From: Candidatus Poseidoniaceae archaeon
Lineage (GTDB): Archaea; Thermoplasmatota; Poseidoniia; Poseidoniales; Poseidoniaceae
Reading direction: 5' to 3'
NCBI GenBank assembly: GCA_049598575.1
Contig: JBMYNT010000003.1
Span: forward strand, 1,155-65,154
DNA length: 64,000 bases
In this document: positions 3,101-58,655 of the stretch, piece by piece
Position numbering within the stretch: position 1 is the stretch's first letter
Layout of the letters: each line of letters starts with the position of its first letter
Made by a program: the position numbers and the translations under genes
Notes under the pieces: generated by a model
What the model saw: the letters and a program-made list of their open reading frames with translations, nothing else
Databases searched by the model: none
What the model was told of the DNA's origin: nothing

Positions 3101-5122
3101 TTGAATACCCACTGGTTGGGGCGGACTATGCAAAACGGAGTTAGCGGCTGGTATGCAAGATTAGATCGATGCTTGGACAACAGACAAACACAAATCGAAA
3201 TGTGGCTCGATGCATGGGAAAACTCCCTCCGAACCCACCAACCTATCGCTGCTCTTCTCCCAGAAGATTGGCCAACACTTCCAGCAAATCTTCTGACCGA
3301 TCCAGGTCATGTTCTCGACCATCTCCTCGCACGTCACGATGCAGAATCCGATGGTCGCTCCCCGCGTGGAGCACACCCTACTCCTCCTCGTCTCGCTGAT
3401 TCGATCATCTCATCGGAAATGCTCGAGGCGACCATCCAACCGAAGGTCAAGAAACAAACGACCAATATGCACCTAGCAGACCTTCCTCCTGGCTTCCAAA
3501 AGCACATCAAGAAGCTGAACTTCCCGCCCAGCGAAGAAGAGGTAACCCTCGATGAGGACTCGCTTGAAGCCGTCAAGCGCAGCGAACGCACGAGCAGCGG
3601 TATTCCGCTCCCGTTTTCAGACATGTCTTGTGGAGGAGGCATTTTCCATGCACGTATGCTTCGAAAGCACAGTGAGTTGTTTGAAGGACAGAGTACTGAT
3701 CTACGCAAAGAAGACACGGAACGACTGTTCCGAGGATTCCAACTTGTTGACGTCGATGAGCTTGTCGTCCGTTCCACTCGAAAGCGATTGTTGCTTGAAG
3801 CGATTCGCCTGGGTCTTGTCTCCCTCGAAGGCGAGCAAGAAGGTAAACTCGCTCGGAACCTCGTTGAAACCATCCTCGAGCAAAACATCGTTTGCTCCGA
3901 TACGCTCCAAGAAGACTGGCCATGGGACCAAGCACCTCGTTTGATCATCGCTAACCCTCCTTGGCTGCGCATCAAAGATCGATTCCGTGGCATGGAAGAT
4001 GGTTCACAACGCCGCAAGGACTTGAGCGAAAAACTACGAAGCCTCTCTAATGAGGATGGCCCTCGTTTCTCGACCATGCGTGGAAACGTCAACCTCTACC
4101 GGCTGTTCATCGAGCGCGGTATGCAAGTTCTCTCAACCGATGGAAAAATGCGAATCGTTGCTCCTGACAGCCTTCTACGAGAACAATCCTCTCACCCATT
4201 GCGAAAACTCCTGGTTGAGAAGCACTCGTGGAACGAAGTTTGGGCTATTGAAGAAGCCAATCTCTTGTTCCCTGGCATGACCCAGGGCGTTGCCATTCTT
4301 GGCATCTCATCGACGCCAAATGGAACGGAATCTCTCAACATCATCGGCCCAGTAACTCGTTCAGATCTACGACGTGTTGGCTCTGGAATCTCATCACGCG
4401 TCCCATCGTTCTCACTTACACAGGAACAATGGGTGCAATGGGCAAGAAACACATGGGCGGTGCCTCGTTTACCTCGTGACCAAATTGAGCGAAAGAGCAT
4501 CCTCAAGATTCTTGACAGTATGTCCCAACTTCCACGACTTGGCGATCATGACCACTGGCTTGCAACGCAAGAACAAACGGTCAAGGTCCGTGTTGGAGAA
4601 ATCGATCAAACAGCCCATTCGAACAACATTTCCAGCTGGGATAAGGCAAAGTCATCTCGTCCATTCATCCGAGGTGTTCATTTCACAGAGGACGAAACCG
4701 GTAGTGTCTACATCCGACACCCAGCTTTCCGAAAGGACATCCCATCGCGTGCGAACGAACGACAACTGGCTATGTGGTCTGGAAAAGCTGAAGTCCAAAC
4801 ATACGGTCCTCGCCTCGCTTGCCAAGCCATCGTGAATGCCCACCAAGAGCGTCGACTACGTTGGGCTGTGATTCCGAAAGGATGCATCCTCGGAAACAGT
4901 GTGAACCATATCGAAATGAACCAAGCCATCCTCAACAGATTGAGTGCAGCCAAAGGCGATCTTCAGAAAGCATTGGAGTGGATGTGCGACCAACTCAACC
5001 AACGCGACTTAGACGATTGGGCAAAGGCCTGGTCCGCCAACAACAACGTCAACAATTACGAATTGGAAATGCTCCCTCTTCAACTAGGGCTTGAAACCGG
5101 TGTTGAAGAAGTCGCACAATGA
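3101..5122 (+). CDS. Gamma-class N6-adenine DNA methyltransferase (Eco57I/TaqI-like), stand-alone
   Basis: Motif X-like GAHPTPPRLADSII, motif I-like DMSCGGGIF, and motif IV IIANPPWLRIKDRF (NPPW), in gamma-class order X-I-IV. An NLYRLFIERG…MRIVAPDSLL segment follows NPPW as in the Eco57I family. About 380 aa follow as a candidate target-recognition domain. No endonuclease or HsdS/HsdR gene is adjacent. Confidence 0.75.
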   Translation: MNTHWLGRTMQNGVSGWYARLDRCLDNRQTQIEMWLDAWENSLRTHQPIAALLPEDWPTLPANLLTDPGHVLDHLLARHDAESDGRSPRGAHPTPPRLADSIISSEMLEATIQPKVKKQTTNMHLADLPPGFQKHIKKLNFPPSEEEVTLDEDSLEAVKRSERTSSGIPLPFSDMSCGGGIFHARMLRKHSELFEGQSTDLRKEDTERLFRGFQLVDVDELVVRSTRKRLLLEAIRLGLVSLEGEQEGKLARNLVETILEQNIVCSDTLQEDWPWDQAPRLIIANPPWLRIKDRFRGMEDGSQRRKDLSEKLRSLSNEDGPRFSTMRGNVNLYRLFIERGMQVLSTDGKMRIVAPDSLLREQSSHPLRKLLVEKHSWNEVWAIEEANLLFPGMTQGVAILGISSTPNGTESLNIIGPVTRSDLRRVGSGISSRVPSFSLTQEQWVQWARNTWAVPRLPRDQIERKSILKILDSMSQLPRLGDHDHWLATQEQTVKVRVGEIDQTAHSNNISSWDKAKSSRPFIRGVHFTEDETGSVYIRHPAFRKDIPSRANERQLAMWSGKAEVQTYGPRLACQAIVNAHQERRLRWAVIPKGCILGNSVNHIEMNQAILNRLSAAKGDLQKALEWMCDQLNQRDLDDWAKAWSANNNVNNYELEMLPLQLGLETGVEEVAQ

Positions 5123-8474: not shown

Positions 8475-10484
8475 TTATTCTTCTTCTGTTGTGAAGACGT
8501 TCTCTTCGTTCCCTTTCATCGATACGATGATGAGAATGTAGGCTGCAATAACGCCCACAATCAGCAACAATGGGAGAGAGATAGAGTCCTCCGATGAGCC
8601 TTCTTTGTCATCAACAAGTTGCGAATCACTCGTATTGTTGGTTTGTTTGATTTCTTCTTCCGGCCAGTCAATTCCGATACGAACAATATGGATATCACCA
8701 TTCACATTTGTTGATTCGATATGAATGAGATTGACAGGTTCCTCGATCTTAATTGAAAACTCATCATCGGACATGGAGGCTGAAGACCAGAATGGATTTG
8801 TGTTCAGAGCATCGGTCCATCGAATGGTTGAATTTGTCTGAGAATGTGTAAACTGAAGCGTGAAAGTGTCGTTCGTTTGTGATTGAAGAGTTACCCAATC
8901 CCCATTCCTCAGTGATCGATTTTCATCTGTTAAATGAAGCATGAATTCGGGTAAATCAACACGCTCGATTGCACTCGAATCGTTGGTTGTTGCAGGATTA
9001 TTGGATTGTTCTTCGGGTGCAAAGAAGACAGCATTCTGTCCAAGAAGAATACGATCATCACGATGGGATCCTGGTGATGCACCCCAAGTGCCTTCCAACG
9101 TCAAGGCGTACCAAGCCTCGCCCAGTTCCCCAAAGGTCATGTGATGCTCAAGCGTTTTCGGGTTCAATCGCGTAAGTTCTTCCCAAGCAGGTGTCATATC
9201 TGGGTTGGGAGAAGTTGACGTCCAGAGAATTGCATCTCCACTGATGAAGCGTGCATCGAGTTCCCACTCAAAGTGAAGTGTAGCATTATCTTGTTCAATA
9301 AGTAATTCAGAAATTGAAATGGGTACATTCCTCTCGAGGATTGGTCCGACCTTCCCCGAAACATCGAACTGATCAATCTGAGCATTGCCTCGAGTGTCAA
9401 CGAGTCCGATGGCATAGTGGGATGTTAACATCCAATCATCGGACAGCTGGTGAATAAACTCTACACTCGTTGTGTCCAATTCAGCGAGAACTTGAACGCC
9501 ACTCTGCTCGAATGATACGATTGGGCTCGTGGCATGGTAAACTCGAATCTTAGCGATGTCCGATTGCGTCACTTCGCTCCATTGCAAAACTGTTTGAGAT
9601 TCACTTGAATTGAATTGTGCGATCAACGAACCACCGTATCTTGGAGCTTGGTTGTCTTCAATAATTGGTGCAGTGAGGCTGTTCGCACTGTGCAAGCGCG
9701 TATCTTCACGTGCAGGATAACATCCAAAGTCATCGCAATATGGAGGATAGAAACATGTCAATGTGTAGTAGACTTCACGATCGATGGATTGGTTTGTCCA
9801 ATCGAGCGTAAATTGCGATGATGTCGCAGGTATGAAATTTGTAACAAGCGTTTTGTCCATACCATCCCATGATGATTTTGTCGCAGGCACGGAATGTTCG
9901 TACAACGAGTGATAGAAATTATTGCCAGCACACGCTGGTCTCCATGTGAATACAGTAGATTGATTGGTTACGTCGTACTGCGCTGCGAATAGTTCGGGCG
10001 CAACTGAGTCAGGGACCACCTCCCGGTGACCTCCTGGAATCTGAGACAATCCGACATTCACTGCCTCAGTTCGCGTCCCATCACGGAGAACAGTTACAAC
10101 TGCGTAGGAAACTTCTCGTGACGTTCCCGGTGCAGGCTCATAGACGAACGTATGCCCTTTTCCTGAACAATCCTCATTCAAGTCGTTCATGTAGCAAGCA
10201 GGAATGTCTTCTGCGACCATGGTTTCAGGCGTAATGGCATTGGCAAAGAACCGCCCGTTTTCGATGCGGTGTACTTCATACGTTGCCATCTTCAACTGAT
10301 CAAGAAGCAACCCATCGGTCGTCTCAATGTTTCTCCATTGTAAAATGGTTGATTCCGAATCTGGGAAGAACTCTGCCCATGTTTCACGCGCTTCCAAAGT
10401 CTCATCCTCTTCTTCAGCGGCGACTGATTGCAAAGGAAATGCGAGTAGAAGGACAAGAACGAGGGCAAAGACTTGCGTTCTCAT
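8475..10484 (-). CDS. Secreted, C-terminally anchored cell-surface glycoprotein with fibronectin-III-like repeats (S-layer/surface protein candidate)
   Basis: Signal peptide MRTQVFALVLVLLLAFPLQSVAA. Recurring roughly 100-aa modules are marked by TILQW/TVFTW/TVLQW/LHFEW/FTLQF. There are many N-x-S/T sequons, and a C-terminal TM helix LPLLLIVGVIAAYILIIV with a short tail. The protein is very acidic. Confidence 0.55.
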   Translation of the reverse strand: MRTQVFALVLVLLLAFPLQSVAAEEEDETLEARETWAEFFPDSESTILQWRNIETTDGLLLDQLKMATYEVHRIENGRFFANAITPETMVAEDIPACYMNDLNEDCSGKGHTFVYEPAPGTSREVSYAVVTVLRDGTRTEAVNVGLSQIPGGHREVVPDSVAPELFAAQYDVTNQSTVFTWRPACAGNNFYHSLYEHSVPATKSSWDGMDKTLVTNFIPATSSQFTLDWTNQSIDREVYYTLTCFYPPYCDDFGCYPAREDTRLHSANSLTAPIIEDNQAPRYGGSLIAQFNSSESQTVLQWSEVTQSDIAKIRVYHATSPIVSFEQSGVQVLAELDTTSVEFIHQLSDDWMLTSHYAIGLVDTRGNAQIDQFDVSGKVGPILERNVPISISELLIEQDNATLHFEWELDARFISGDAILWTSTSPNPDMTPAWEELTRLNPKTLEHHMTFGELGEAWYALTLEGTWGASPGSHRDDRILLGQNAVFFAPEEQSNNPATTNDSSAIERVDLPEFMLHLTDENRSLRNGDWVTLQSQTNDTFTLQFTHSQTNSTIRWTDALNTNPFWSSASMSDDEFSIKIEEPVNLIHIESTNVNGDIHIVRIGIDWPEEEIKQTNNTSDSQLVDDKEGSSEDSISLPLLLIVGVIAAYILIIVSMKGNEENVFTTEEE

Positions 10485-18401: not shown

Positions 18402-19406
18402 GTGGCGAATCGAATGAACATGGAGAGCGGCAAAAAGAACCCGTGGCCGCTTCGTATTCTCATCGCTTCGATGGTGTGTTTTGTCATCGGGAGCATCACC
18501 ATTATTGGACAGATGGATACGCTTGGAGATGCTCTCGATCCACAGCGCAACAACATCGGCTCACTTGATGCTAGTTCTGAAGACCAGAAACTGATGAATG
18601 TCGAAGAGTCCGGTTGCTACCGAGCATACGGCGTTGAGTTCGAAGGAACTGTTACACTGTCTGAAGTCAATGGTTCGGATGTTCAAGATGAAGTTGAAGA
18701 ATCGAAATGCAAGCTCGATTGGGGTGCTATGTCTGCGGATGGAAGTGTTGAGTACACCATCCTTGGTTCGTGGGAACTGACTCAAGGAGATTATCTCATG
18801 CGCATCGATTGCGACGGAGCATGTGCAAACGAAACCGTTTGGCTTACTTCGATTGATGCAATGGAAGGCGATATTATGAACTCGCCAATGGTATACATCG
18901 GAGGATCTCTGTGTTGTCTAGGCATCTTCCTATTGCCATTAGCTGGCGTTCTGCAAGCATTTTCTCAAAACCGAAAACAGAATCTCATGATGGTCGTTGG
19001 CCCTGATGGTCAAGTCATGCCACTAACAGATCTCACATCAGATGTTGTACAAGAACAAATCAACAAAATGAATCAAGGTGCAACCGAAGGGGTTGGGTTT
19101 GACGTTCGTACGGGCGAATACATGAATTCGGACAAGAACATTTCAAACCAACAGATGGATGGTGCGCGAGATGTACAGGCAGGAAGTATGTTGACAACTG
19201 AACAGGTCTATGCACTAATGCGAGGTGATGTTGAATCGGCAACTCCACAAGAAGAGCAACATGAACAAGTTGCAGATCCATTCCCTACACCTGCAATTCG
19301 ACAGACATCAACGTCCCCGATTGTTGAGCGAACGACTGTGAACCAATCCGATCGAAAGATTCCAGTCGCGAACAACGAAGATTGGCAGTCATGGGATGAA
19401 GATTGA
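18402..19406 (+). CDS. Hypothetical membrane protein (2 TM, large acidic extracellular region)
   Basis: TM segments LRILIASMVCFVIGSITII and YIGGSLCCLGIFLLPLAGVL. No family recognised. Confidence 0.4.
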   Translation: MANRMNMESGKKNPWPLRILIASMVCFVIGSITIIGQMDTLGDALDPQRNNIGSLDASSEDQKLMNVEESGCYRAYGVEFEGTVTLSEVNGSDVQDEVEESKCKLDWGAMSADGSVEYTILGSWELTQGDYLMRIDCDGACANETVWLTSIDAMEGDIMNSPMVYIGGSLCCLGIFLLPLAGVLQAFSQNRKQNLMMVVGPDGQVMPLTDLTSDVVQEQINKMNQGATEGVGFDVRTGEYMNSDKNISNQQMDGARDVQAGSMLTTEQVYALMRGDVESATPQEEQHEQVADPFPTPAIRQTSTSPIVERTTVNQSDRKIPVANNEDWQSWDED

Positions 19407-20214: not shown

Positions 20215-23200
20215 TCAGTTGTCTGCTTCATCACCAAGGACAGACATCAAGGACGATTGCTCAGCAATACGGTCCTTGACGGCTGCACGTCGGCCTCGTC
20301 CTACAAGGTAGAGGACGCCGAAGAGTGAGAAGGTCAAGAGAACGATCAAACTCGGAAGTGCGACCTTTCCTGCGACTTCACCAGCAACATCCAAGAATGG
20401 GTTTGAGGAGCCGAGTTCTTGGGAGATTCGAACAACGTTGTCACCTTCATTTGCTTCAACAATCGTGTTGCCTGGGTCAACAACAACGTAGACGTTCTTA
20501 CTACCTGCAGTAACTGGGTAAAGCATGTACAGCTCGATAACACGCTCATCTTGTGAATCGTCTGGCTTGTCCAATGCACCAATGATTTGGCGCATAACGA
20601 TGCTGTCCTCGTCGCACATGTTGTCGTTCTTACGAATCTCGGTCATCATGTCGTCATCGTCGTATTCACAGAGAATCACTTCAATATCTGAAGCATGGAC
20701 GTTACCAGTGTTGGCAATCTCGATACGAATCGGGATGGATTCACCAACGTCGGCCGATGTAGAATCGACAGAGGCTGATCGCACAACAAGGTCTGGTGCG
20801 CGTAGATTGATGGTTACAATCTTCTCGTTGGAATCCAACAAGTCTCCAACCCACGATGATGAATCATCATGGTCTCCACCTTGCTCAGCGTTACCCATCA
20901 TTGAGACAACTTTCAGACCAAGACTTCGGGTCGTGAGTTGTGCACCTGGGTCGATGGCTACGATAGCGACCATCGTGTAGGTTTCGTATGGAGCCATTTC
21001 TGGGAGGCGCCACGAATCAATATCCGTGAGATAGACACAACTGTCCTCTGGGAAGGATGCCGCGGTCGAGGTGGTCGCAACACAGTCTTCCTCGCTTTCA
21101 AGATCGAGTCCTACTTGTCGGATGATCTTCCACGAAACATCCCATCCGTCGAGCGTACCCATGCCTGGGAACTCTTGGACGGTGATATCGGTACCAGAGC
21201 GGTCGGAAGTGTGGTTGTCGAGCGTTGGTACGTCAGGGACGTTTCCAGCGTTCGTGACATTGACAATAAATCGTACAACACGACCAGGAGCAGAGGTCTT
21301 GACATCGTTCTCAACGGTTGGATCCATTGAAATTTGCATGTCGTAGAACTCACGTACAGTGACAGTGAGCGTTGTAACATCTCGCAAACGTGTCATACGA
21401 CCTGCTGCGTCCTCGTCCTTCTGTTCGGACTTTGTGTGGAAGACAACGGTGTAGTCTCCAGCAGGTACTTGCTGAGGGATGTTCATGAGAACGTCGAAAG
21501 ATTGCGATGAGCCCGCATCGAGTTCTTCCAATGTGCTGCGTGGAACAGTGATGTCCCAGATAACGTCGACACCTGCCTCGTCGGTAACACGGGCAAGGGT
21601 GTAGTCAAAACGATCTGGTCCGTTACCGTTGTTGTTCACGGTTGTCGGGAGGATAATCGAGTCGCCTGGATTGACGGTGAGTGCCTCGTTATCAACAAGG
21701 GAAACATCGGTTGACAAACGGTAGACGTGGTCGACATCGACTTGCAGAATCTTCGCTGCTGAAATCTTCGGGTATCCTTTCAGATGAGCCTTGATGGTCA
21801 CTGCCTTTCCGAGTCCAGCTGGAGCGTCGTCAGGAGCACAGATTTTCACCTTAACCACGTGCATGCGGAAGTCATCACCAGACATGAGGACCCACGGATA
21901 GGAGACACCGTCTGGGTTCAACGTCAGTCCGTTCGGGAAGATGACTTCTGTTGTCCAATTGTCATCGTTTTCAGTGGTTCCAGGGGTTGTGAAGACAAGA
22001 TCACCTGTATCGAAGTATTTCTCAACCTCGATTTCAAAGACGTGGCAATTCGGGTCCAAGGCATTCGGCGCATAAGGAGCCGGCGTTACGATGGCTTCCT
22101 GATCGGTGATGTTGAACACGATGTTGTTCGAGGAACGAATCGAAACGAAGACACCGAGTTCTAGGATGTCGTAGGTTCCCTTCTCAACGGACTTGACAGG
22201 CTCGCCTGCTGACCATCCCTTGAGCAGAATGACGAACGCACCAGGGTCTTCGGACGTAGGTACGCTAATTTCGAGGTTCTTGGTGACCGTCTGCTTTGGA
22301 TCGAGTTGGACACTCAGTGGGAAGTTCACGTCCCACGCAAACGGAAGCAACCATTCTTGACGCCCCTCAAGGGTTTGAGGATCCCAGAACAGGAACGTAT
22401 CTGCTACGTTGCCTGTGTTGGTAATCGTGATCGAGAAGATGGCCGTTTGGCCCTGTTCCACATCAGCGACGCTGTGCGATGCATCCAAATCAATTCCGTG
22501 AACTACGTCCATGAGGGTGAGCGTTGTGATTTCTGAGCGGATAGCCGGATCCTTGTAGGACTTGGCATCGACGCGAATCTCTGCGAGTTCGTCGGCGTTT
22601 GCCTGGTAAATCGATGGCGCTCGGACACGGAGATAGAACCGAATCGATTCTCCACCTTCGAGGAAAATTTCAGTGTCAGGGAAGATAGCAGTGTGATTAT
22701 CGGCGAAGAACAACGTTGCCGTCCAGTTTGTTGGAACACCGGTAATGTTGAGTCCGTAGGAGTCAGCTACCAGATCTTTCGGCCCTGGCGTGGAGTTGTT
22801 CATGGTGAGATTGTAGATGGTTTGTTCACCAGGTTCAATCACATGGTAGAACGTCTCTCCATCGTCAAATTCAACATCAACTTGTCCGGTTAAGACGTGT
22901 GAGTAACAAATCGTAAACCGGTTGTTGTTGGTTTCATCGTTGCACTTGTTGGTATCCGACCATGCCACGTGCGCACCGCTTCCTAGATCATTCGAGAACG
23001 CTGGAGGCATACCGATGCTCGGTTTGTAACCAGAGTTTGGCCCAAGTTTGTTCGAAGACCATGAAGTGATAGCAACGGTTTCCCAAGGATCGAGTGCTGT
23101 GAGTCCATCGCCTTCGAGAGAGGTATGGTTCAATCGCACGTACAGAAGTTCTTCTCCAGCAGACGTGTTTCCAGAGTCAACCCATGCGATGTGGACTTGA

Positions 23201-25224
23201 TTCTGGTCATCCGTGAGGAGAGATGGGAAGACGGAATTACCGCCCCATGGTGCATTCTGCGGCAGTCCAGCGTTGGTTTCAACGTTGGAAATCGGTGTAT
23301 CGTTGATCTTCTTGATGGCGTATGTGGAGAGACCATCATCGCGACCGTCAAATTCTCCAGCACCCTGAAGTCGGAGTTTGGTGTAGTAAATCTCGTAGTT
23401 GACGTCCTTTTCGAAACCGTAGTCACGTCCATCCATCCATGCAATGTGCGTGTTGCCTTCCATGTCAACACCAATCGATGGGTGGAACGAGTAAGCGTCA
23501 TCAATCGTGACACGCGTGTCATTGACAACAACGAGGTGGCCCTCGGAGCCTTTTCCGGTGTCTTCTCTGTAACCGCCGTTCTGAGCAACAGTTCCGGAGA
23601 CACCAGGCGTCCAGCTTGGGTCGTTGTTCATCTTGCCATATGGGTCGAGAACGGACATGTAGATCTCACGTGAGTTGTTGGTGGAGATGTAAACCATTGC
23701 TTCCACAAGGAGCGACATTTGGCTTGCGCCGCCGCTTCCGGATGGGAATTCGTAGACTTGTCCACCTGCGTCTGTTGAGCGGATGGTATTACCTGGGCAG
23801 TTTCGAGCAGCTGTGCTTTGGACACCGTTTGGGCACTGGGCCAAGTCCTTGAAGTGAGATTGAACACTTGTAGCACCGCCGTAGGTTTGTCCGTACATTC
23901 CGACTGGAACGACACCAGCGTTGACACAGTTGTCGTGCGCTTCCTCAATGGAGGTCGTGTCGTCCGCTTGCTGTGCAGGGTCACCGTCCTTTGGCCCCTC
24001 ATCGGAAATTGGGATGGCGATCTTGGTTGCGTTCGGGTTCCACTTGTGATCGTCTTGTGTCGGGGGGTTTCCTGGAACGTTGCCCTGTGCATCCTTCCAA
24101 GAGAGACATGCCCAGTTGGTTCCTGGGCCCCAGTCCTCACCAGAGTATCCAGAGTACGTGTTACCGTTGTAAACGGTTCCTGGGAGCTTACGGATACCAC
24201 CAGAGTCGTCTCCTGGAGTGATACCGAGGGCTGTTGAACGAGGTCCGGCGTTCTTGTTGTGTGTTGCACAGTTACCACTGCTTGCAGCACCTGGGAGTGT
24301 GTTTCCAAGACCATAAATGGTCTCGTAAACCGTCATGTTTCCTTCTTGGAGCATTGGCTTGAGACCTTGGAAGTAGCCACCTGCAGCGAAGTTTCCGCCG
24401 TAAATGACCGTACAAACGTCGGCCCACTCAGAGTACATCGATCCAGATGTGTCGACGAGGAAGACGAGCTCGACCTTTCCACCACGAGTGTCGTCCCAAG
24501 CGATTTGGACGAGGTCATTTGAATCGACAACAATGTCTGGGTGACCCTTGTGCCCGATGATTGGTGTCAAGAGTGTATCTTCGAAGAGTGTGAGGACGGT
24601 TCCACCACTGAACTCAGGTTGAATCATGGAGTAATAGATTTGAGGTTGGTTGAAGAATTGCTGCAACTCATCGTAGGAATCTTGCCAAGCGATGTGGAGG
24701 TTGCCTTGGCTGTCAACATCAATGGATGGCCAGTCACGGTCTTGTGCGCGCATGGAGATGATGGTATCATCGATAACGGAGATTGCAGTATCCTCTGCAG
24801 CCATTCCATCGAGTGGTGCAAGGTACGGGTTGATCGAGGTGTACATGATCTTGTGTTGACCGGACTTGTCCGCCCAAACCAAGTGGATTCTGTCGTTGTC
24901 GTCGATAACCATGTCTGGGTGCCAGACCTTGTGGAGTCCTGGATTGGTGATTTGCGTCGCATCAATCAGGGTCTCACCACGTGGAGAAAGCATGGAATAG
25001 TACAGGTGTTGTGTGTTCCTTGCCCAGACGATGTGAACGTTTCCTTCACTATCTGATGCAACTGCGGCTTGGTTGTCGGATGCTGTTCCACCGTCAACAA
25101 TTCGAACGGCTTCAGTAATGACGACTTGAGAGGCTTCGGCTTGCTCAGTTCCAATCACCATTCCAGAGAACAGAGACAGAAGAAAAAGGCTAACGAGGGT
25201 AATCGATTTGGTTGTTTGACGCAT
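20215..25224 (-). CDS. Giant secreted/anchored adhesin-like protein: beta-propeller-like repeats + VWA (MIDAS) domain + CARDB-like domains + C-terminal TM anchor
   Basis: Signal peptide (start at MRQTTKSITLVSLFLLSLFSGMVIG). Seven or more copies of a roughly 40-aa blade motif '…D..GN.HIaW.D…….iYYs' (e.g. NVHIVWARNTQHLYYSM, RIHLVWADKSGQHKIMYTSI, NLHIAWQDSYD…QIYYSMI, NTHIAWMDGRD…EIYYTKL). VWA domain with MIDAS LVFLVDTSGSMYSEW. Several N[VIA]TN[AT]GN (CARDB-like) motifs: VNVTNAGNVPD, ITNTGNVADT, IANTGNVHASD. C-terminal TM LPSLIVLLTFSLFGVLYLV followed by a basic tail. Confidence 0.7.
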   Translation of the reverse strand: MRQTTKSITLVSLFLLSLFSGMVIGTEQAEASQVVITEAVRIVDGGTASDNQAAVASDSEGNVHIVWARNTQHLYYSMLSPRGETLIDATQITNPGLHKVWHPDMVIDDNDRIHLVWADKSGQHKIMYTSINPYLAPLDGMAAEDTAISVIDDTIISMRAQDRDWPSIDVDSQGNLHIAWQDSYDELQQFFNQPQIYYSMIQPEFSGGTVLTLFEDTLLTPIIGHKGHPDIVVDSNDLVQIAWDDTRGGKVELVFLVDTSGSMYSEWADVCTVIYGGNFAAGGYFQGLKPMLQEGNMTVYETIYGLGNTLPGAASSGNCATHNKNAGPRSTALGITPGDDSGGIRKLPGTVYNGNTYSGYSGEDWGPGTNWACLSWKDAQGNVPGNPPTQDDHKWNPNATKIAIPISDEGPKDGDPAQQADDTTSIEEAHDNCVNAGVVPVGMYGQTYGGATSVQSHFKDLAQCPNGVQSTAARNCPGNTIRSTDAGGQVYEFPSGSGGASQMSLLVEAMVYISTNNSREIYMSVLDPYGKMNNDPSWTPGVSGTVAQNGGYREDTGKGSEGHLVVVNDTRVTIDDAYSFHPSIGVDMEGNTHIAWMDGRDYGFEKDVNYEIYYTKLRLQGAGEFDGRDDGLSTYAIKKINDTPISNVETNAGLPQNAPWGGNSVFPSLLTDDQNQVHIAWVDSGNTSAGEELLYVRLNHTSLEGDGLTALDPWETVAITSWSSNKLGPNSGYKPSIGMPPAFSNDLGSGAHVAWSDTNKCNDETNNNRFTICYSHVLTGQVDVEFDDGETFYHVIEPGEQTIYNLTMNNSTPGPKDLVADSYGLNITGVPTNWTATLFFADNHTAIFPDTEIFLEGGESIRFYLRVRAPSIYQANADELAEIRVDAKSYKDPAIRSEITTLTLMDVVHGIDLDASHSVADVEQGQTAIFSITITNTGNVADTFLFWDPQTLEGRQEWLLPFAWDVNFPLSVQLDPKQTVTKNLEISVPTSEDPGAFVILLKGWSAGEPVKSVEKGTYDILELGVFVSIRSSNNIVFNITDQEAIVTPAPYAPNALDPNCHVFEIEVEKYFDTGDLVFTTPGTTENDDNWTTEVIFPNGLTLNPDGVSYPWVLMSGDDFRMHVVKVKICAPDDAPAGLGKAVTIKAHLKGYPKISAAKILQVDVDHVYRLSTDVSLVDNEALTVNPGDSIILPTTVNNNGNGPDRFDYTLARVTDEAGVDVIWDITVPRSTLEELDAGSSQSFDVLMNIPQQVPAGDYTVVFHTKSEQKDEDAAGRMTRLRDVTTLTVTVREFYDMQISMDPTVENDVKTSAPGRVVRFIVNVTNAGNVPDVPTLDNHTSDRSGTDITVQEFPGMGTLDGWDVSWKIIRQVGLDLESEEDCVATTSTAASFPEDSCVYLTDIDSWRLPEMAPYETYTMVAIVAIDPGAQLTTRSLGLKVVSMMGNAEQGGDHDDSSSWVGDLLDSNEKIVTINLRAPDLVVRSASVDSTSADVGESIPIRIEIANTGNVHASDIEVILCEYDDDDMMTEIRKNDNMCDEDSIVMRQIIGALDKPDDSQDERVIELYMLYPVTAGSKNVYVVVDPGNTIVEANEGDNVVRISQELGSSNPFLDVAGEVAGKVALPSLIVLLTFSLFGVLYLVGRGRRAAVKDRIAEQSSLMSVLGDEADN

Positions 25225-25313
25225 AGGAACACCTGTGTGTCTATAAGCAACCTTCACCACTACTTAACCGCGACCCTTACGCGTCAGAAATCAAAGGGGG
25301 CGAAATGTGTTAT

Positions 25314-25940
25314 TCAAGCCCATTCATCCGGATCCAATCCAGTGCCGAAAGGCATCATATCGTTGTACTCGATTTGAGCAGGTTCTGGTGCACTTTCTTC
25401 GGGTTGCTTACGCTTCTTTTGTTCTGTCCAATCGTCAACAGGACCCGGCTCTCCTTTCCCTGGACCATATGCGAATTTGATCTCATGAATCATGCTTAAT
25501 TTGGCAAGCCAAAGACGGCGCAGGCTATGCATGAGAGCATTTTTGTTGAGGCCATCATGCCATATTGGCAAACTCACATTGAATGCTTGAAGAGGTCCCG
25601 GTTTTTCTTTGCCTACGTGACCCATGTGGATGCCCCAGTCGAGGTCTGCACGCATAAGCGAGAGGCGGCACTCGTGCACCCACTCTGACCAGACCTCTGG
25701 CTCTTCGTTCATGTGCTCCTTCATCTGTTCTTGTTGACCCAAATCTACTCGCGTCATGCTCGAAACGAAAACGAGGTCTCTTCCTTTTGGTAGGACGACG
25801 GCGAACATGTGGCCTTGAGGGCCTGGAGGGTAACGAACGAGAAAGTGTGCATCCGCCCGGGGGTCGTTCTTATCTCGAATTTCGAGACGTTCGCTTGCAA
25901 GCCACTGACGGATTTGCTGGACGTGTCCGGAATCGACCAT
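25314..25940 (-). CDS. Conserved hypothetical cytoplasmic protein, immediately upstream of the giant adhesin gene
   Basis: 208 aa with an acidic C-terminal tail and no TM. Lies 53 nt upstream of the 20215..25224 gene on the same strand. No motif I can name with confidence. Confidence 0.4.
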   Translation of the reverse strand: MVDSGHVQQIRQWLASERLEIRDKNDPRADAHFLVRYPPGPQGHMFAVVLPKGRDLVFVSSMTRVDLGQQEQMKEHMNEEPEVWSEWVHECRLSLMRADLDWGIHMGHVGKEKPGPLQAFNVSLPIWHDGLNKNALMHSLRRLWLAKLSMIHEIKFAYGPGKGEPGPVDDWTEQKKRKQPEESAPEPAQIEYNDMMPFGTGLDPDEWA

Positions 25941-29762: not shown

Positions 29763-31334
29763 TCAACTCGTTAAGGTCGGTACATCAAGCTCAGAGAATC
29801 GACGGACGCGTAGCAATTGACGAATTCGCTCAATGCGTTGCCGGCTTTCTTTTGGCAATACATTTGTTCGAACAATTCTGGAACCAAGAACGACCCCCTC
29901 ATCGTCACGAAGCGTCACTTGAACTTGCGCTGCACCCTTGAAACTACGATTCCAAGCAACATTGATCCAGAGAACGACTGTACGCTCGAGATATCGCGGT
30001 AGCCAACTCAAAACATCGTCATCAGAAGCATGCGTAAGTTCGATGGCTTTCGTTGGAGGGGGGCAGGGAGCCAATTCAAACCGGTGGTCAATGGACTGCG
30101 GCTCCCCTCCGGGAACTTGAACTTCGACACGAACGTGGGTAGCATCAAACGTCTGATTGTTGAGTGCAATAAAGAGGCTGCCTGACCCATCGTAACATGT
30201 CGAATCAAGTGAGATATCCATCCTCCACGGAGAGAGCAAAATCTCAGGCGCTCCAGAAAGGAAATCGTTCTGCAATCGTTCAAACAATCGGAAAGCTCCA
30301 GGCTGCCAAGCCCTTGCATGTTCAAGGGCGCGTTGGAGTGTTCGCCAATTGAAAAATTGAGTTTCAGAGAGAAGCGTTCGTTCGATAGCATCCGGCGGCA
30401 TGAAGTCACGTAATGAGTCAAGAACAACCTCATCGCTAATGATGGAATGAGCATTAAGATGCAAAAGGAAGAGAAGACGTTCTCTTGCCTGTATCGGGTC
30501 AGTCCCGGGAAGAATAGCATCATGAAACCGAGCCTCCCACTCAGCCCATTCGATTTGCGAATCCGGATCGAGATGCGATTGAAGCAATTGACCCAATGGA
30601 GAGCCTAATTGTGTTGGATGGTGCGTTGGTGCATAATGTATCAGCAATGGCATCGTATCTGCCTGAAGTCGGATGTAATAAGTCGTCAAAATAGAGTGAA
30701 TGCTCAAGCCAATTCCCGCAGTCATCGATGCCAGTAAGAGCAAATTCCATGCGACTGAACGAGGCGTAATGAGCATTGAAAGACACAACAACGTCAGAGA
30801 CGTGGTCGCAAGGAAGGCACTGATGTTGTTTTGTCGGCGTCCATCTCGAAGGCCTTCAAGGACTCGGTCCATCCCTGGTTGCGCTCTGAGCGTGTGTCGC
30901 TTTCCATCCCCAAATCCTCCCTGCTCACGAAGAGAAATCTTTGCTTCTACTGCAGACCATGTCGCTTCGCTTCCTGCGATAGGGGGGACGAATGCTGCAA
31001 GAGCCGGAATCAACCAAATAGCGAGGATGAACAACGGAGAAGTGTATGGCAAGATGGAAGGATCGATAACGAGCAAAACTGCAGTTATGGCGATACCAAA
31101 ACCGACGACGTTTCGAAACGCAAGGAAGAACGAGTTGTTGGCAATTTGTCCGCTTTTCATGCGGAAACGTTCGCTCTTGACCCAGGCTTCACGTGTACGT
31201 TCGAGAGGATCTTCGTTTCGAGCAAAGCCATGGCCGTAAGGATCTGGCAAGGACTTGATGGTTCGCCGGGTACGAGCAACGATGGATTCTTCCTCTGGCT
31301 CCATCTGACTCAGTCCTCTGTACGAACAGCCCAC
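29763..31334 (-). CDS. Hypothetical polytopic membrane protein
   Basis: Six or more hydrophobic helices in the N-terminal half and a soluble C-terminal domain. No family recognised. Confidence 0.4.
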   Translation of the reverse strand: MGCSYRGLSQMEPEEESIVARTRRTIKSLPDPYGHGFARNEDPLERTREAWVKSERFRMKSGQIANNSFFLAFRNVVGFGIAITAVLLVIDPSILPYTSPLFILAIWLIPALAAFVPPIAGSEATWSAVEAKISLREQGGFGDGKRHTLRAQPGMDRVLEGLRDGRRQNNISAFLATTSLTLLCLSMLITPRSVAWNLLLLASMTAGIGLSIHSILTTYYIRLQADTMPLLIHYAPTHHPTQLGSPLGQLLQSHLDPDSQIEWAEWEARFHDAILPGTDPIQARERLLFLLHLNAHSIISDEVVLDSLRDFMPPDAIERTLLSETQFFNWRTLQRALEHARAWQPGAFRLFERLQNDFLSGAPEILLSPWRMDISLDSTCYDGSGSLFIALNNQTFDATHVRVEVQVPGGEPQSIDHRFELAPCPPPTKAIELTHASDDDVLSWLPRYLERTVVLWINVAWNRSFKGAAQVQVTLRDDEGVVLGSRIVRTNVLPKESRQRIERIRQLLRVRRFSELDVPTLTS

Positions 31335-31375: not shown

Positions 31376-31452
31376 TGGCGGGCGTGGCAGGATTCGAACC
31401 CGCGATCTTCGGCTTAGGAGGCCGACGCATTATCCAGCTGTGCTACACGCCC
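31376..31452 (-). tRNA. tRNA-Arg (anticodon CCU), CCA encoded
   Basis: Reverse complement GGGCGTGTAGCACAGCTGGATAATGCGTCGGCCTCCTAAGCCGAAGATCGCGGGTTCGAATCCTGCCACGCCCGCCA. The 7-bp acceptor stem GGGCGTG/CACGCCC pairs. Anticodon stem TCGGC/GCCGA with loop CTCCTAA gives anticodon CCT. T-arm GCGGG-TTCGAATC-CTGCC. Confidence 0.85.
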
Positions 31453-35607: not shown

Positions 35608-35679
35608 GCCCGCTTGGTGTAGAGGTTATCATGCAGGATTGTCATTCCTGCGACCCGGGTTCAATTCCCGGAGCGGGCG
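35608..35679 (+). tRNA. tRNA-Asp (anticodon GUC), no encoded CCA
   Basis: GCCCGCTTGGTGTAGAGGTTATCATGCAGGATTGTCATTCCTGCGACCCGGGTTCAATTCCCGGAGCGGGCG. Acceptor stem GCCCGCT/AGCGGGC. Anticodon stem CAGGA/TCCTG with loop TTGTCAT gives anticodon GTC. T-arm CCGGG-TTCAATT-CCCGG. Confidence 0.85.
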
Positions 35680-35840
35680 CCTCACTCATCTCTCTGATGT
35701 ACTGTCACCGTACCGCACACTCGGCACCAAACCTTGATGCCGTCAATTCGTGGGGTTGCCCCTGCGATATCGATGCTTGCTCCACATTGGCATTGGACAA
35801 CATTGCGCATGGTCGTGCCAACGCTTCGACGTTCATGAAT

Positions 35841-40771: not shown

Positions 40772-42526
40772 ATGGCACGACCAGCGCAGGTATCCTTCCC
40801 TGGCCAAAAACAACGGATGCGGATGCGTGGAACAAAGCATGCAAACGATGCTACGGCGAAGCGGCTCAGTCGGCAATTGCGACAGCTCCTCGATGACCCG
40901 GACAAGTATCTCCCAACCATGACATGGAAAGGCCGCTTGAGTTGGGGTCGGAAAGATCCGGTAACGAAGACCTTGCAAGAACTCCGAAAGATTGTTGCCA
41001 AAAAAGACGATATGAAATGGCTCTCAAAGAGAATGCTTGCAAAACGTGGCGATCCAGTCGGGAAAGCCCTTGCTGGCTCATTGCATGCTGCTCATGATGA
41101 GGAGATTTCACTGGTTGGAAATTTCAAATCCCCGAATTTTGGGTCGGGCTCGTTTATTCGACGTGGCGACGGGAAGCAAGGATATCTTGCTGGATTACAA
41201 AATCATCAGAATCTCACATTACGGATGTTGCCATGGGAAGAACATGCACGGAAAGGGATGTACTTCTTTTCCTGGGAAGATGGATTCGTATGCACTGGAC
41301 CAAATCCAAACCCTCCAAAGGGATGGCTGGAAGATGTTCTCGAACGATCTCGTTTTGATTTCAAACACGAAGAATTGGAGGGTGTCGATGTTTACGTGGC
41401 CGGAGAGATAACTGGACAAGATGTTCTCAACGGAACGCCTTCCTCACAAGGATGGGTTCGTCTCACATTCAAACACGGACCGATTGTTGGCATCGATTTG
41501 CAATCTCTGAAGGCTACCAAAGAAAAACAGAGTGCATTTGTTCACCATCTTGCACTTTCGATGCTTCCTCCATTGCTGACTTCAATTGTTGACATTGATG
41601 CGATGTGGGTTCCAAATGGATGGGATCTGAAGGACAGTCTTCCAACTGGTGCGCAAGAAGGTCTTGAGAAGTTGATGGCTGGTTGGCATGGTTTGACTGT
41701 TCCAGAAGGCAACCTTACACGGGCTTGTGAACGTGCAGTTCTTGATTCACTGGATTTCGGTTTGCTCATTGGCTCTTCATGGAGCAAAGGAGATTCCATT
41801 GAACAAATCCTAGCATCTTTGGAGGACATGCAAGGCTCACAGGATGAGAAACTGCTTGCAGCTGGTGTGTTCCTTGAGGCCATGGGACTGACAAAAGAAG
41901 GAATTCGAATCGATGCAAGAGGTGGACGACAGGAACGTGAAGGAAGCATCGTCGAAGTCATGGAAGGTGCAAGCCTTACCGATGCAGTGCAAGCCTTGTG
42001 GGAAGATTTCGGCCTCGCAGGACTCACATCCATTGGAATTGAAGGCGATGAAGCCGAAATCATTTGGGAGCAGCAGTTGAAGAAACCAAAGCCCCTCAAA
42101 ACCTTCCTCAAAGGATTGGACTCGTCGAGGAAGAAAGCACAACAAAAAGCAAAATTCCCTTACCGCATTGGCGATCTTCCAGGACCTGTTGGTGCGATTC
42201 ATGATTTGATTCTCACTGGCCTATTGGAAGGTCCAGGAATTGCTGAACGAAAAGCCACATCACGACATGACGATATCGATGGCGCCGCTGCGGGGTGGGC
42301 ATGGTTGCGTGCTGCTGAACGCTCAACAGGACAAGAATGGCATTTTGAATCGCTTGCTCGAGACCGTGGTGGGGCTTGGATGGAAGCAACGAAAGCATTG
42401 CTCGAAGCAGGAAAAGGGCTCCTCAATTCAGAAGAAAGTACGGCTGCAGATTTCATTGAGGCCTTGAACGTCCTACATACATCGACAGGACAGCAAGAGC
42501 CTCTTCCAAATCAGCCTAATGCTTGA
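40772..42526 (+). CDS. Hypothetical protein (584 aa), no recognisable domain
   Basis: Long ORF with good coding character: acidic, with no low-complexity artefacts. No motifs I can assign. Start uncertain. Confidence 0.4.
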   Translation: MARPAQVSFPGQKQRMRMRGTKHANDATAKRLSRQLRQLLDDPDKYLPTMTWKGRLSWGRKDPVTKTLQELRKIVAKKDDMKWLSKRMLAKRGDPVGKALAGSLHAAHDEEISLVGNFKSPNFGSGSFIRRGDGKQGYLAGLQNHQNLTLRMLPWEEHARKGMYFFSWEDGFVCTGPNPNPPKGWLEDVLERSRFDFKHEELEGVDVYVAGEITGQDVLNGTPSSQGWVRLTFKHGPIVGIDLQSLKATKEKQSAFVHHLALSMLPPLLTSIVDIDAMWVPNGWDLKDSLPTGAQEGLEKLMAGWHGLTVPEGNLTRACERAVLDSLDFGLLIGSSWSKGDSIEQILASLEDMQGSQDEKLLAAGVFLEAMGLTKEGIRIDARGGRQEREGSIVEVMEGASLTDAVQALWEDFGLAGLTSIGIEGDEAEIIWEQQLKKPKPLKTFLKGLDSSRKKAQQKAKFPYRIGDLPGPVGAIHDLILTGLLEGPGIAERKATSRHDDIDGAAAGWAWLRAAERSTGQEWHFESLARDRGGAWMEATKALLEAGKGLLNSEESTAADFIEALNVLHTSTGQQEPLPNQPNA

Positions 42527-51149: not shown

Positions 51150-51280
51150 GTTCGACCCTCGATGAGGTGACATAAACGGTTTGCGTCTTTTCCGCAAACT
51201 ATGATTGGTGGCAATGCTTGGGGTAAAGCATGGAGGTAAGTGATGCATGGGGTGTTCGTTGGGATGACTCAACCTTGCCC

Positions 51281-58568: not shown

Positions 58569-58655
58569 AAATTGAGCAAAAATTCTTCATGGTTATGAAG
58601 GGCTATCTTCAAACCTTATGGCATCCACGGTGGTTTATCCGAGAAGGTGTTCAAG

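What the first reader, a model, noticed from the sequence alone, without database searches (positions are those of the whole stretch)
20215..25260. Giant (~1670 aa) anchored adhesin-like surface protein combining a 7-plus-blade repeat propeller, a VWA/MIDAS domain and CARDB-like domains
The protein has a signal peptide, then seven or more copies of a roughly 40-aa '…GN.HIaW.D……iYY' motif, which looks like a beta-propeller of a type I cannot assign to a named family. A von Willebrand A domain is inserted, with a complete MIDAS start (LVFLVDTSGSM) and a G/N-rich loop region. At least three CARDB-like modules follow (N[VIA]TNxGN), then a single C-terminal TM helix and a basic cytoplasmic tail. 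This architecture is typical of cell-cell or cell-surface adhesion proteins. In a halophilic archaeon it is a candidate for host or partner attachment, or biofilm formation; giant surface proteins of halophiles are poorly characterised. A small conserved gene (25314..25940) sits 53 nt upstream on the same strand and may be co-transcribed.
Basis: partly seen in the sequence, partly recalled or inferred. Interest (0 to 1): 0.7.

Follow-up and report, generated by a model that had tools for sequence, protein, structure and literature searches.

The report
Integrin-like surface receptor of marine archaea
This gene encodes a 1,669-residue membrane-anchored surface protein, found throughout the Marine Group II (Poseidoniales) archaea, whose predicted seven-bladed propeller carrying an inserted VWA domain on a stalk resembles the layout of animal integrin alpha chains; its function has not been tested.

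Summary
The gene is window 20215..25224 (-), 1,669 aa. It starts at the ATG at 25224, not the GTG at 25260.

- **Organism.** It is a Poseidoniales (Marine Group II) archaeon, not a halophile.
- **Metal site.** D258-x-S260-x-S262 plus D408 are present. Across 134 relatives the Ser motif never occurs without the Asp.
- **Stalk and anchor.** About six beta-sandwich modules follow (one significant CARDB), then a transmembrane helix and a 28-aa tail with a conserved AEQSSL motif.
- **Conservation.** The gene sits in one housekeeping block in both Poseidoniales families (54% identity between them). The VWA insert is its best-conserved part.

The most likely function is a constitutive, metal-dependent ligand-binding receptor or adhesin, analogous to an integrin alpha chain but not homologous to one. 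A cell-envelope scaffold role is not excluded. I rate it a new variant of a known kind, of moderate interest.

The parts
20215..25224 (-). Whole gene, 1,669 codons plus stop; corrected start ATG at 25224
   Evidence: ORF. Translation. Homologue lengths and N-terminal alignment. Upstream sequence.
25129..25224 (-). Signal peptide, aa 1-32 (MRQTTK / hydrophobic core / AEAS)
   Evidence: Read directly from the sequence. Relatives keep a hydrophobic N-terminus. No predictor was run.
24478..25128 (-). Propeller, N-terminal part (aa 33-249): blades 1-3 and strands A-B of blade 4
23665..24477 (-). VWA-fold domain (aa 250-520) inserted between strands B and C of blade 4. It includes ~120 aa of family-specific conserved loops (WGPGxNWACLSW, PGNPPTxxDHxWNP, EAHDxC) and six conserved Cys.
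24439..24453 (-). MIDAS-type motif D258-T-S260-G-S262. The partner Asp D408 is encoded at 24001..24003.
   Evidence: Sequence. 111 of 134 relatives keep DxSxS together with the Asp after strand beta-4, and none keeps DxSxS without that Asp. The residues align with D140/S142/S144/D242 of an integrin alpha-M I-domain sequence that I recalled from memory (low hhalign probability).
22885..23664 (-). Propeller, C-terminal part (aa 521-780): strands C-D of blade 4 and blades 5-7, with conserved Cys761/Cys773
   Evidence: Repeat motifs at aa 590, 675 and 749. AlphaFold2 strands.
20407..22884 (-). Stalk of about six beta-sandwich modules (aa 781-1606). Working boundaries: A 781-902, B 903-1030, C 1031-1168, D 1169-1290, E 1291-1470, F 1471-1606.
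   Evidence: NCBIfam choice-of-anchor T, 79.3 bits against a cut-off of 70. Weak Ig-like and NPCBM_assoc matches. hhalign relates B to D (94%) and A to B (71%). No structure was predicted for this half.
20431..20799 (-). CARDB domain (aa 1476-1598), the membrane-proximal module
   Evidence: Pfam PF07705, E 4.6e-9 on the whole protein and 2.5e-10 on the segment.
20302..20364 (-). Single transmembrane helix, aa 1621-1641 (VALPSLIVLLTFSLFGVLYLV)
   Evidence: Hydropathy scan: 125 of 126 full-length relatives have a C-terminal helix.
20218..20301 (-). Cytoplasmic tail, aa 1642-1669 (GRGRRAAVKDRIAEQSSLMSVLGDEADN), with a conserved R-x-AE[QK]SS[LM] motif and an acidic end
   Evidence: The motif is conserved in the short-tailed relatives, which are the majority of the 126 examined and include both Poseidoniales families.
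25314..25940 (-). Upstream DUF2299 gene (208 aa, no signal peptide), 89 nt from the true start. Whether it belongs to the same system is uncertain.
   Evidence: Pfam DUF2299, E 1.3e-12. A homologue of unknown function has a solved structure, 3cxj. Adjacent in 78 of 80 Poseidoniaceae loci and in a Thalassarchaeaceae genome. Absent at the locus of the second lineage.

Best explanation
The gene encodes a constitutive type-I membrane protein of the Poseidoniales cell surface that works as a metal-ion-dependent ligand-binding receptor or adhesin.

**Shown or predicted.** A Sec-type signal peptide should export about 1,590 residues. The distal head is a seven-bladed beta-propeller. A VWA domain is inserted into the loop between strands B and C of blade 4.

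**Inferred.** By the usual propeller convention, that loop lies on the top face, which is the face propellers normally use for binding. The VWA domain carries a MIDAS-type site (D258, S260, S262, D408) that should hold Mg2+ or Mn2+ and complete its coordination with an acidic group of a ligand, as in integrin I-domains, TRAP or anthrax-toxin receptors. About six beta-sandwich modules hold the head away from the membrane. One helix anchors the protein. The short, conserved cytoplasmic tail (R-x-AEQSSL plus an acidic end) contacts an unidentified cytoplasmic partner, so that occupancy or load at the head could be coupled to the cell interior.

**Unknown.** The ligand. Candidates are polymers or surfaces of particles and phytoplankton, or other cells.
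For: **Fold**
- The model of aa 30-800 has pLDDT 85.4 and pTM 0.86, with seven blades plus an alpha/beta insert.

**Metal site**
- The DxSxS motif and the Asp after beta-4 vary together. Of 134 relatives, 111 have both, 15 have the Asp only, 8 have neither and none has DxSxS alone.

**Constraint on the head**
- The VWA insert is the best-conserved domain in 15 of 18 comparisons. It is 72-80% identical in relatives whose remaining domains are mostly 10-35% identical.

**Topology**
- Signal peptide, one C-terminal helix and a basic stop-transfer cluster are present.

**Cytoplasmic coupling**
- 125 of 126 relatives have a helix followed by a tail carrying conserved linear motifs.

**Constitutive role**
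- Relatives are found in 424 species-level genomes.
- The same HIT / acyltransferase / DUF2299 / gene / HTH / hypothetical / topoisomerase VI block occurs in Poseidoniaceae and Thalassarchaeaceae, at 54% identity over the full length.
- There is no paralogue in the window and no copy on viral contigs.
Against: - No experiment, expression data or ligand exists.
- The VWA assignment rests on predicted structures. Sequence models fail: Pfam VWA E 0.18, 12.4 bits against a cut-off of 23.8, and a family profile finds nothing in the PDB.
- I could not read model coordinates. The geometry of the metal site, the residue playing the role of the MIDAS Thr, and the orientation of the VWA domain on the propeller are therefore unverified. 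The hhalign alignment to an I-domain has only 5% probability, and around the Thr position it disagrees with the model's secondary structure.
- About 120 aa of invariant, Cys-rich loops in the insert have no counterpart in known VWA domains and could carry a different activity.
- Strong conservation of a surface-exposed head would also fit a structural envelope protein.
- The stalk was not modelled.
Confidence: 0.55

Rival explanations
1. It is the major cell-envelope (S-layer or canopy) protein of Poseidoniales. The beta-sandwich modules form a lattice or pillars anchored by the C-terminal helix. The propeller-VWA head forms the outer canopy, and the metal site stabilises lattice contacts rather than binding an external ligand.
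For: - The protein is an order-wide orthologue of fixed length in a housekeeping block.
- It is acidic, with pI 4.3.
- It combines an array of Ig-like or CARDB-like modules with a C-terminal membrane anchor. From my own knowledge, the solved haloarchaeal and Nitrosopumilus S-layer proteins have this general design.
- I found no description of a Poseidoniales envelope protein in the literature I searched, so the role is vacant.
Against: - The family keeps cytoplasmic tails of 23-190 aa with conserved linear motifs. A passive lattice protein would not be expected to need these.
- No PGF-CTERM or other archaeosortase signal was detected; the only S-layer-type hit (PACE-CTERM-PROT) has E 0.4.
- To my knowledge, a propeller with an inserted VWA domain is not known in S-layer proteins.
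- I found no abundance data.
- N-glycosylation sequons (17) are close to my rough estimate of ~14 expected by chance (my arithmetic from the composition).
Confidence: 0.2
2. It is a surface-tethered carbohydrate-active enzyme or lectin. The propeller is the catalytic or sugar-binding module, related to GH145, PL25, PL42 or sialidase-type propellers. It would act on algal polysaccharides, with the VWA domain as an accessory.
For: - The Foldseek matches with the lowest E-values are GH145 BT3686 (1.6e-7), the sialidases NanB and NanC, PL25 ulvan lyase (target TM 0.53), PL42 rhamnose-glucuronate lyase (target TM 0.57) and Photorhabdus fucose-binding lectins.
- There are weak BNR_4 matches (E 0.0014).
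- MGII archaea are linked to phytoplankton-derived organic matter (abstract of PMC8821943, listed).
Against: - Sequence identity to the enzymes is 6-14%.
- The conserved propeller positions I could identify are repeat-motif residues rather than an obvious catalytic set, whereas the strongest conservation lies in the VWA insert.
- No match to any glycoside-hydrolase or polysaccharide-lyase catalytic family passes a threshold in Pfam or NCBIfam.
Confidence: 0.1
3. It is a receptor exploited by viruses or a cell-cell recognition protein, and partner recognition rather than particle attachment shapes its evolution.
For: It is a large, exposed and universally present surface protein. A second lineage of the family has a degenerate metal site and a different tail, which shows that the function has diversified.
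Against: The exposed head is the most conserved part, the opposite of what an arms race predicts. No homologue occurs on viral contigs. There is no positive evidence for this reading.
Confidence: 0.05

Closest known systems
Integrin alpha subunits that carry an inserted I-domain (alpha-M, alpha-L, alpha-1 and others)
   Different: - No FG-GAP repeats are detected, so there is no evidence of common descent.
- The blades carry a 'P-[DS]-I-x-V-D...GN-x-H-I-A-W-x-D...I-Y-Y' motif.
- The VWA domain sits inside blade 4, between strands B and C, not between blades 2 and 3.
- The stalk is CARDB-like or choice-of-anchor-T-like, not thigh and calf domains.
- There is no GFFKR motif.
- No beta-subunit partner is known.
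- The insert has ~120 extra residues with three probable disulfides.

This is an analogue, not a family member.
Stand-alone prokaryotic and parasite VWA adhesins and receptors (Bacteroides BatB 3ibs, Plasmodium TRAP, pilus-tip adhesins SpaC, PitA and Mfa5, LapA VWA domain)
   Different: In those proteins the VWA domain is a terminal or tandem module, not nested in a propeller blade. Sequence similarity is below Pfam detection.
PilY1 (type IV pilus-associated adhesin and mechanosensor of bacteria)
   Same: It combines a VWA domain with a seven-bladed-type propeller in one surface protein that is implicated in attachment and surface sensing. This rests on PMC11331964 (listed) and my own knowledge.
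   Different: In PilY1 the VWA domain is N-terminal and the propeller C-terminal. PilY1 is pilus-borne, not membrane-anchored, and it has no beta-sandwich stalk or cytoplasmic tail. I made no direct comparison.
NCBIfam 'PDIAV motif-containing lipoprotein' (NF053835) and Pfam BNR_4 propeller repeats
   Same: They share the blade motif (P-D-I-A-V-D type strand). Aa 38-130 match NF053835 at E 2.6e-13. The same repeat occurs in more than 1,400 cluster representatives, many of them giant multi-propeller proteins.
   Different: The score of 50.2 bits is below the 90-bit cut-off. There is no lipobox. Whether those families carry an inserted VWA domain was not checked.
CARDB and choice-of-anchor T surface-protein modules
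   Same: Aa 1476-1598 are a CARDB domain. Aa ~1107-1272 pass the NCBIfam choice-of-anchor T cut-off. NCBI already names some orthologues 'CARDB domain-containing protein'.
   Different: These names describe only the stalk. They say nothing about the head, which makes up about 45% of the protein and is its most conserved part.

Membership tests
VWA domain (von Willebrand factor type A fold) | Alpha/beta Rossmann-like fold: a central, mostly parallel sheet flanked by helices | tested here: met
VWA domain (von Willebrand factor type A fold) | Sequence match to Pfam VWA models above the gathering score | tested here: not met
   PF00092 scores E 0.18, 12.4 bits against 23.8, and covers the first strand only. 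Only 3 of 19 family members reach E <= 1. A family profile finds no VWA chain in the PDB.
VWA domain (von Willebrand factor type A fold) | MIDAS DxSxS after strand beta-1 | tested here: met
   D258-T-S260-G-S262. The motif is intact in 111 of 134 relatives.
VWA domain (von Willebrand factor type A fold) | MIDAS Asp after strand beta-4 | tested here: met
   D408 in 'IPISDEGP'. It is present in 126 of 134 relatives, and the 8 that lack it also lack DxSxS. It aligns with D242 of an alpha-M I-domain sequence recalled from memory.
VWA domain (von Willebrand factor type A fold) | MIDAS Thr from the loop before helix alpha-3 | tested here: inconclusive
   hhalign places G338/D339 of the conserved 'GDDSGGIR' at this position. 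That alignment has 5% probability, and the AlphaFold2 model makes this segment a strand. Coordinates could not be inspected.
VWA domain (von Willebrand factor type A fold) | Binding of a divalent cation | not testable with these tools
   Needs biochemistry or an experimental structure.
Integrin alpha subunit | Seven-bladed propeller built of FG-GAP repeats with Ca2+-binding hairpins | tested here: not met
   Seven blades are present. No FG-GAP family appears at E <= 1 to 10, and the repeat motif is different.
Integrin alpha subunit | I-domain inserted between blades 2 and 3 | tested here: not met
   The insert lies within blade 4, between its second and third strands.
Integrin alpha subunit | Beta-sandwich leg, single transmembrane helix, short tail with a membrane-proximal GFFKR | tested here: inconclusive
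   A beta-sandwich stalk, one helix and a 28-aa tail are present. GFFKR is absent (read from the tail sequences); the conserved motif here is GRGRR...AEQSSL. No thigh or calf family appeared in the Pfam scans, but the stalk was not modelled.
Integrin alpha subunit | Obligate heterodimer with a beta subunit | not tested
   No candidate partner was sought. None is evident among the neighbouring genes.
CARDB (PF07705) | Pfam match above the gathering score | tested here: met
   Aa 1476-1598 score 36.8 bits against 22.7. As an isolated segment they score 40.9 bits. Only this one module passes.
Choice-of-anchor T (NCBIfam NF041740) | Score above the curated cut-off | tested here: met
   79.3 bits against 70, in three stretches, the best at aa 1107-1272.
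PDIAV motif-containing lipoprotein (NCBIfam NF053835) | Score above the curated cut-off, and a lipoprotein signal | tested here: not met
   50.2 bits against 90. There is no Cys in or next to the signal peptide; the first Cys is at aa 271.
Archaeal S-layer glycoprotein | Most abundant envelope protein, forming a regular lattice | not testable with these tools
   No expression or imaging data were found.
Archaeal S-layer glycoprotein | Archaeosortase-type C-terminal signal (PGF-CTERM or similar), or a known S-layer family match | tested here: not met
   No such family appears at E <= 1 apart from PACE-CTERM-PROT at E 0.4, 9.3 bits against 110. The tail extends 28 aa beyond the helix.
   No sequence was compared. 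The host is Poseidoniales. No protease, endonuclease or mucin-like family was found.

The most novel reading that the evidence does not exclude
Poseidoniales, the most abundant planktonic archaea of the surface ocean, may carry an independently evolved counterpart of an integrin. This would be a universal transmembrane receptor whose propeller-plus-VWA head binds an external ligand through a metal site. Its conserved cytoplasmic tail motif (AEQSSL plus an acidic end; TIGDLIDDLL in a second lineage) would recruit a cytoplasmic partner. That partner could be the DUF2299 protein, which stays next to the gene in both families of the order. Attachment to particles, algae or other cells would then be sensed and transmitted across the membrane.
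Probability: 0.2. Interest if true: 0.8.

Novelty: new variant of a known kind. Interest (0 to 1): 0.5.

Why it matters
Marine Group II archaea are uncultured, and how they touch particles, phytoplankton or each other is argued mainly from archaellum, thrombospondin and flotillin genes (PMC6461757). This gene gives a concrete, order-wide candidate for the cell's main extracellular contact point. It also names testable residues (D258, S260, S262, D408) and a conserved intracellular motif.

Structurally, it shows that the design 'VWA domain nested in a seven-bladed propeller, on a stalk, with one helix and a short tail' arose outside the integrin lineage. That bears on how this kind of receptor evolves.

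In practice, current annotation ('CARDB domain-containing protein', 'hypothetical protein', 'uncharacterized membrane protein') misses the head entirely. No Pfam or NCBIfam model covers it.

Tried and rejected
- **Sequence detection of the head failed.** Pfam and NCBIfam on the whole protein and on pieces, phmmer against PDB sequences, and a family profile against the PDB all found nothing significant. Only structure prediction settled the fold.
- **Halophile origin rejected**.
- **Frameshifted pseudogene rejected.** Full-length relatives of near-constant length are abundant.
- **GTG start at 25260 rejected** in favour of the ATG at 25224.
- **Integrin homology rejected.** There are no FG-GAP repeats and the insertion point differs.
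- **Viral origin or viral copies:** none found.
- **Paralogue in the window:** none.
- **Expression level:** supplementary tables of a MAG-resolved metatranscriptome paper could not be mapped to this gene.
- **AlphaFold database fold search:** the library was unavailable.
- **Glycosylation-site enrichment:** 17 sequons are close to my rough estimate of ~14 expected by chance, so I make no claim (plus my arithmetic).
- **Promoter or terminator in the 89-nt gap:** the available scanner models bacterial signals, so I did not run it, and reading the sequence gave no convincing archaeal TATA box.
- in my notebook entries and I numbered the MIDAS Asp one residue too high (D259). This was corrected to D258/S260/S262.
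Full report
**1. What is in the sequence**

The minus strand carries one uninterrupted ORF at 20215..25260. The ATG twelve codons downstream (25224) is the real start:
- Homologues are 1,669-1,676 aa and align from that Met.
- A GGTG lies 5-8 nt upstream of it.

The product has 1,669 aa and pI 4.3. Its N-terminus reads as a Sec-type signal peptide: a basic MRQTTK, a 19-residue hydrophobic core, then AEAS. Every relative has a hydrophobic N-terminus. I had no signal-peptide predictor.

The fourth copy is broken after its 'VQIAWDD' strand by about 270 residues that begin ELVFLVDTSGSM. The blade sequence resumes at 'REIYMSVL'.

The C-terminus has one 21-residue hydrophobic helix (aa 1621-1641), then GRGRR and a 28-residue tail.

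**2. Whose gene it is**

The closest relatives, 69-97% identical, come from marine metagenomes. Where they are named, the source is Poseidonia sp., Candidatus Poseidoniaceae or Candidatus Poseidoniales. A 100% identical N-terminal region lies on MAG contig JAAZUV010000030.1. The gene is also present in the first assembled MG-II genome, CM001443.1.

The window has about 50% G+C, and its proteins have a median pI of ~5.0. This is a marine planktonic archaeon of Marine Group II, not a halophile.

**3. The head: a propeller with a VWA domain nested in a blade**

Sequence methods do not recognise the first 800 residues:
- Pfam gives only a weak BNR_4 match (E 0.0014) and a 19-residue VWA match (E 0.18, 12.4 bits against a 23.8 cut-off).
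- NCBIfam gives a sub-threshold match to 'PDIAV motif-containing lipoprotein'.
- The PDB sequence searches, with the protein and with a family profile, found nothing.

I therefore collected diverse relatives with an exhaustive profile-free search of 1.84 billion cluster representatives. It returned 1,429 hits at E <= 1e-3. About fifteen 50%-identity clusters share the whole head. I used them as the alignment for AlphaFold2.

*Propeller.* The model of aa 30-800 has mean pLDDT 85.4 and pTM 0.86. It shows seven four-stranded blades plus an alpha/beta domain.
- Foldseek ranks GH145, sialidases, PL25 and PL42 lyases and lectins first.
- The fold is therefore certain, but no particular propeller family is indicated.

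*Position of the insert.* It lies between the second and third strands of blade 4. By the usual propeller convention, that loop is on the top face. This last point is my inference; I could not open the coordinates.

**4. The metal site and what is conserved**

The numbering is D258-T-S260-G-S262, with D408 in 'IPISDEGP' after the fourth strand. The overall probability of that alignment is only 5%. Around the MIDAS Thr position it places the conserved 'GDDSGGIR' segment where the model has a strand rather than a helix. The fifth ligand is therefore unresolved.

Comparative evidence is stronger. Counts among 134 family members:

| State | Members |
|---|---|
| DxSxS and the beta-4 Asp | 111 |
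| Asp only | 15 |
| Neither | 8 |
| DxSxS without the Asp | 0 |

These sequences are not phylogenetically independent. Still, joint loss is what a single functional site predicts.

The insert also carries about 120 residues with no VWA counterpart. They are almost invariant: WGPGxNWACLSW, PGNPPTxxDHxWNP, EAHDxC and six Cys.

Domain by domain, the VWA insert is the best-conserved part in 15 of 18 comparisons. In three relatives it is 72-80% identical while most other domains are 10-35% identical. The functional centre of the protein is this insert.

**5. The stalk, the anchor and the tail**

Only aa 1476-1598 are a significant CARDB domain. Other evidence for the stalk:
- Aa ~1107-1272 pass the NCBIfam cut-off for choice-of-anchor T.
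- The remaining segments give weak Ig-like or NPCBM_assoc matches.
- Profile comparison relates segments B and D (94%) and A and B (71%).

I read the region aa 781-1606 as about six beta-sandwich modules.

Of 126 full-length relatives, 125 end in a transmembrane helix. The cytoplasmic tails are conserved as short linear motifs:
- Most tails, including the query's, are 23-30 aa: G[RK]GRR..V..R[IL]AE[QK]SS[LM]..., followed by an acidic end that often finishes in Phe.
- A second class has tails of 70-190 aa that end in [DE][EF]TIGDL[IL][DG]DL[LWI].
- A third class contains VGYSPEVARAI.

The second class largely coincides with the relatives that have a degenerate or lost metal site.

**6. Genomic setting**

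The neighbours are housekeeping genes: aconitase, topoisomerase VI B and A, an ArsR-type regulator, an acyltransferase, a HIT protein, an FAD flavoprotein and RFC.

The block HIT / acyltransferase / DUF2299 / this gene / HTH / hypothetical / topoisomerase VI A is found in 65-78 of 80 Poseidoniaceae loci. It is also found intact in a Thalassarchaeaceae (MGIIb) genome. There the orthologue is 54% identical over its full length, and the DUF2299 neighbour is also 54% identical.

A pattern scan of one genome per GTDB species found relatives in 424 stretches.

The second lineage, with the long tail, sits at a different but also conserved locus: glycosyltransferase / UDP-glucose dehydrogenase / GcvP1 / GcvP2 / gene / ... 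/ PurE. Whether both lineages coexist in one genome is not established.

There is no paralogue in the window and no copy on viral contigs.

The DUF2299 protein has no signal peptide. Its homologue 3cxj has a solved structure but no known function. The gap to the true start is 89 nt. Co-transcription is possible but not shown.

**7. How it most likely works**

*Shown or predicted:* export signal, propeller head with a nested VWA fold, metal-site residues, stalk modules, one helix, and a conserved tail.

*Inferred:* the VWA domain sits on the binding face of the propeller. Its metal ion completes its coordination with an acidic group of an external ligand. The stalk projects the head away from the membrane. 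The tail engages a cytoplasmic partner.

This is the working logic of an I-domain integrin alpha chain. Membership of that family fails on every sequence criterion I could test: there are no FG-GAP repeats, the insertion point differs, and there is no GFFKR. The protein is an analogue, not a homologue.

The pattern of conservation points to a constant ligand or a constant structural role, not to strain-specific adhesion. The gene is order-wide, has a fixed length and sits in a housekeeping block, and its head is more conserved than its stalk.

I give the receptor/adhesin reading 0.55. The envelope-scaffold reading gets 0.2; it is favoured by ubiquity and design, and disfavoured by the conserved cytoplasmic motifs and the lack of any S-layer signature. 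A tethered carbohydrate enzyme or lectin gets 0.1, and a viral or cell-recognition target 0.05.

**8. Novelty and verdict**

All the parts are known kinds. The family is uncharacterised: it is annotated only as hypothetical, CARDB-containing or 'uncharacterized membrane protein', and no Pfam or NCBIfam model covers its head. I found no paper describing it.

The nested propeller-VWA head on a stalk with a conserved tail is a new variant of the VWA surface-receptor theme. It is apparently a convergent parallel to integrins. The interest is moderate. It would be high only if transmembrane coupling or a defined ligand were demonstrated.

Noticed in passing
window 20218-20301 (-); relatives P0298-P0414 and P0121-P0139: The cytoplasmic tails fall into three motif classes. 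The first is short, with AE[QK]SS[LM] and an acidic end. The second is long and ends in TIGDLIDDLL. The third contains VGYSPEVARAI. The TIGDLIDDLL class largely coincides with a degenerate or lost MIDAS motif and sits at a different conserved locus (GcvP1 / GcvP2 / gene / PurE).
   Followed up: partly
P0131 (relative), inside the VWA insert: One relative has an extra ~290-aa segment nested inside the VWA insert, which is itself nested in the propeller blade. This is a three-level domain nesting.
   Followed up: no
L082 2921-4180 and L083 2963-4180 (Thalassarchaeaceae loci): In the MGIIb version of the conserved block, a 405-419-aa FG-GAP-repeat protein (the integrin-type propeller repeat) lies three genes upstream of the orthologue, between the FAD flavoprotein and HIT genes. 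The window has no such gene at that position.
   Followed up: no
window 25314-25940 (-): The DUF2299 protein stays immediately upstream of the large gene in both Poseidoniales families and is 54% identical between them. It has a homologue of unknown function with a solved structure (3cxj). It is a candidate cytoplasmic partner, but the whole surrounding block is syntenic too.
   Followed up: partly
window 55719-58568 (+) and 49332-51287 (-): There is a 949-aa acidic subtilase (Peptidase_S8, pI 4.3) and an S15 X-Pro dipeptidyl-peptidase. Both fit the protein-degrading lifestyle proposed for MGII archaea.
   Followed up: no
window 58647-59660 (+): An actin/MreB-superfamily protein (337 aa) matches the MreB_Mbl and Actin models and passes the gathering score of the archaeal Salactin model (27.4 bits against 27.1). 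The Volactin match (23.1 against 35) is below threshold.
   Followed up: no
window 3101-5122 (+): A 673-aa protein with an Eco57I-type restriction-modification methylase domain.
   Followed up: no
window 8475-10484 (-), 40772-42526 (+), 29763-31334 (-), 18402-19406 (+), 59753-61033 (+): Five sizeable ORFs (334-669 aa) have no Pfam match at the thresholds used (E <= 1e-3 or 1e-4). Some are very acidic: 8475-10484 has pI 4.3 and 18402-19406 has pI 4.1. The 334-aa ORF diverges fast between genera (29-33% identity) even though its position is conserved.
   Followed up: no
window 31376-31452 (-) and 35608-35681 (+): tRNA-Arg(CCT) and tRNA-Asp(GTC) are the only RNA genes detected in the window.
   Followed up: yes
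one search hits P0142, P0154, P0156, P0157, P0176, P0193 (relatives elsewhere): The same blade motif recurs in giant proteins of 2,800-5,960 aa, with up to 10 matched stretches. The repeat family is therefore widespread well beyond this orthologue group.
   Followed up: no
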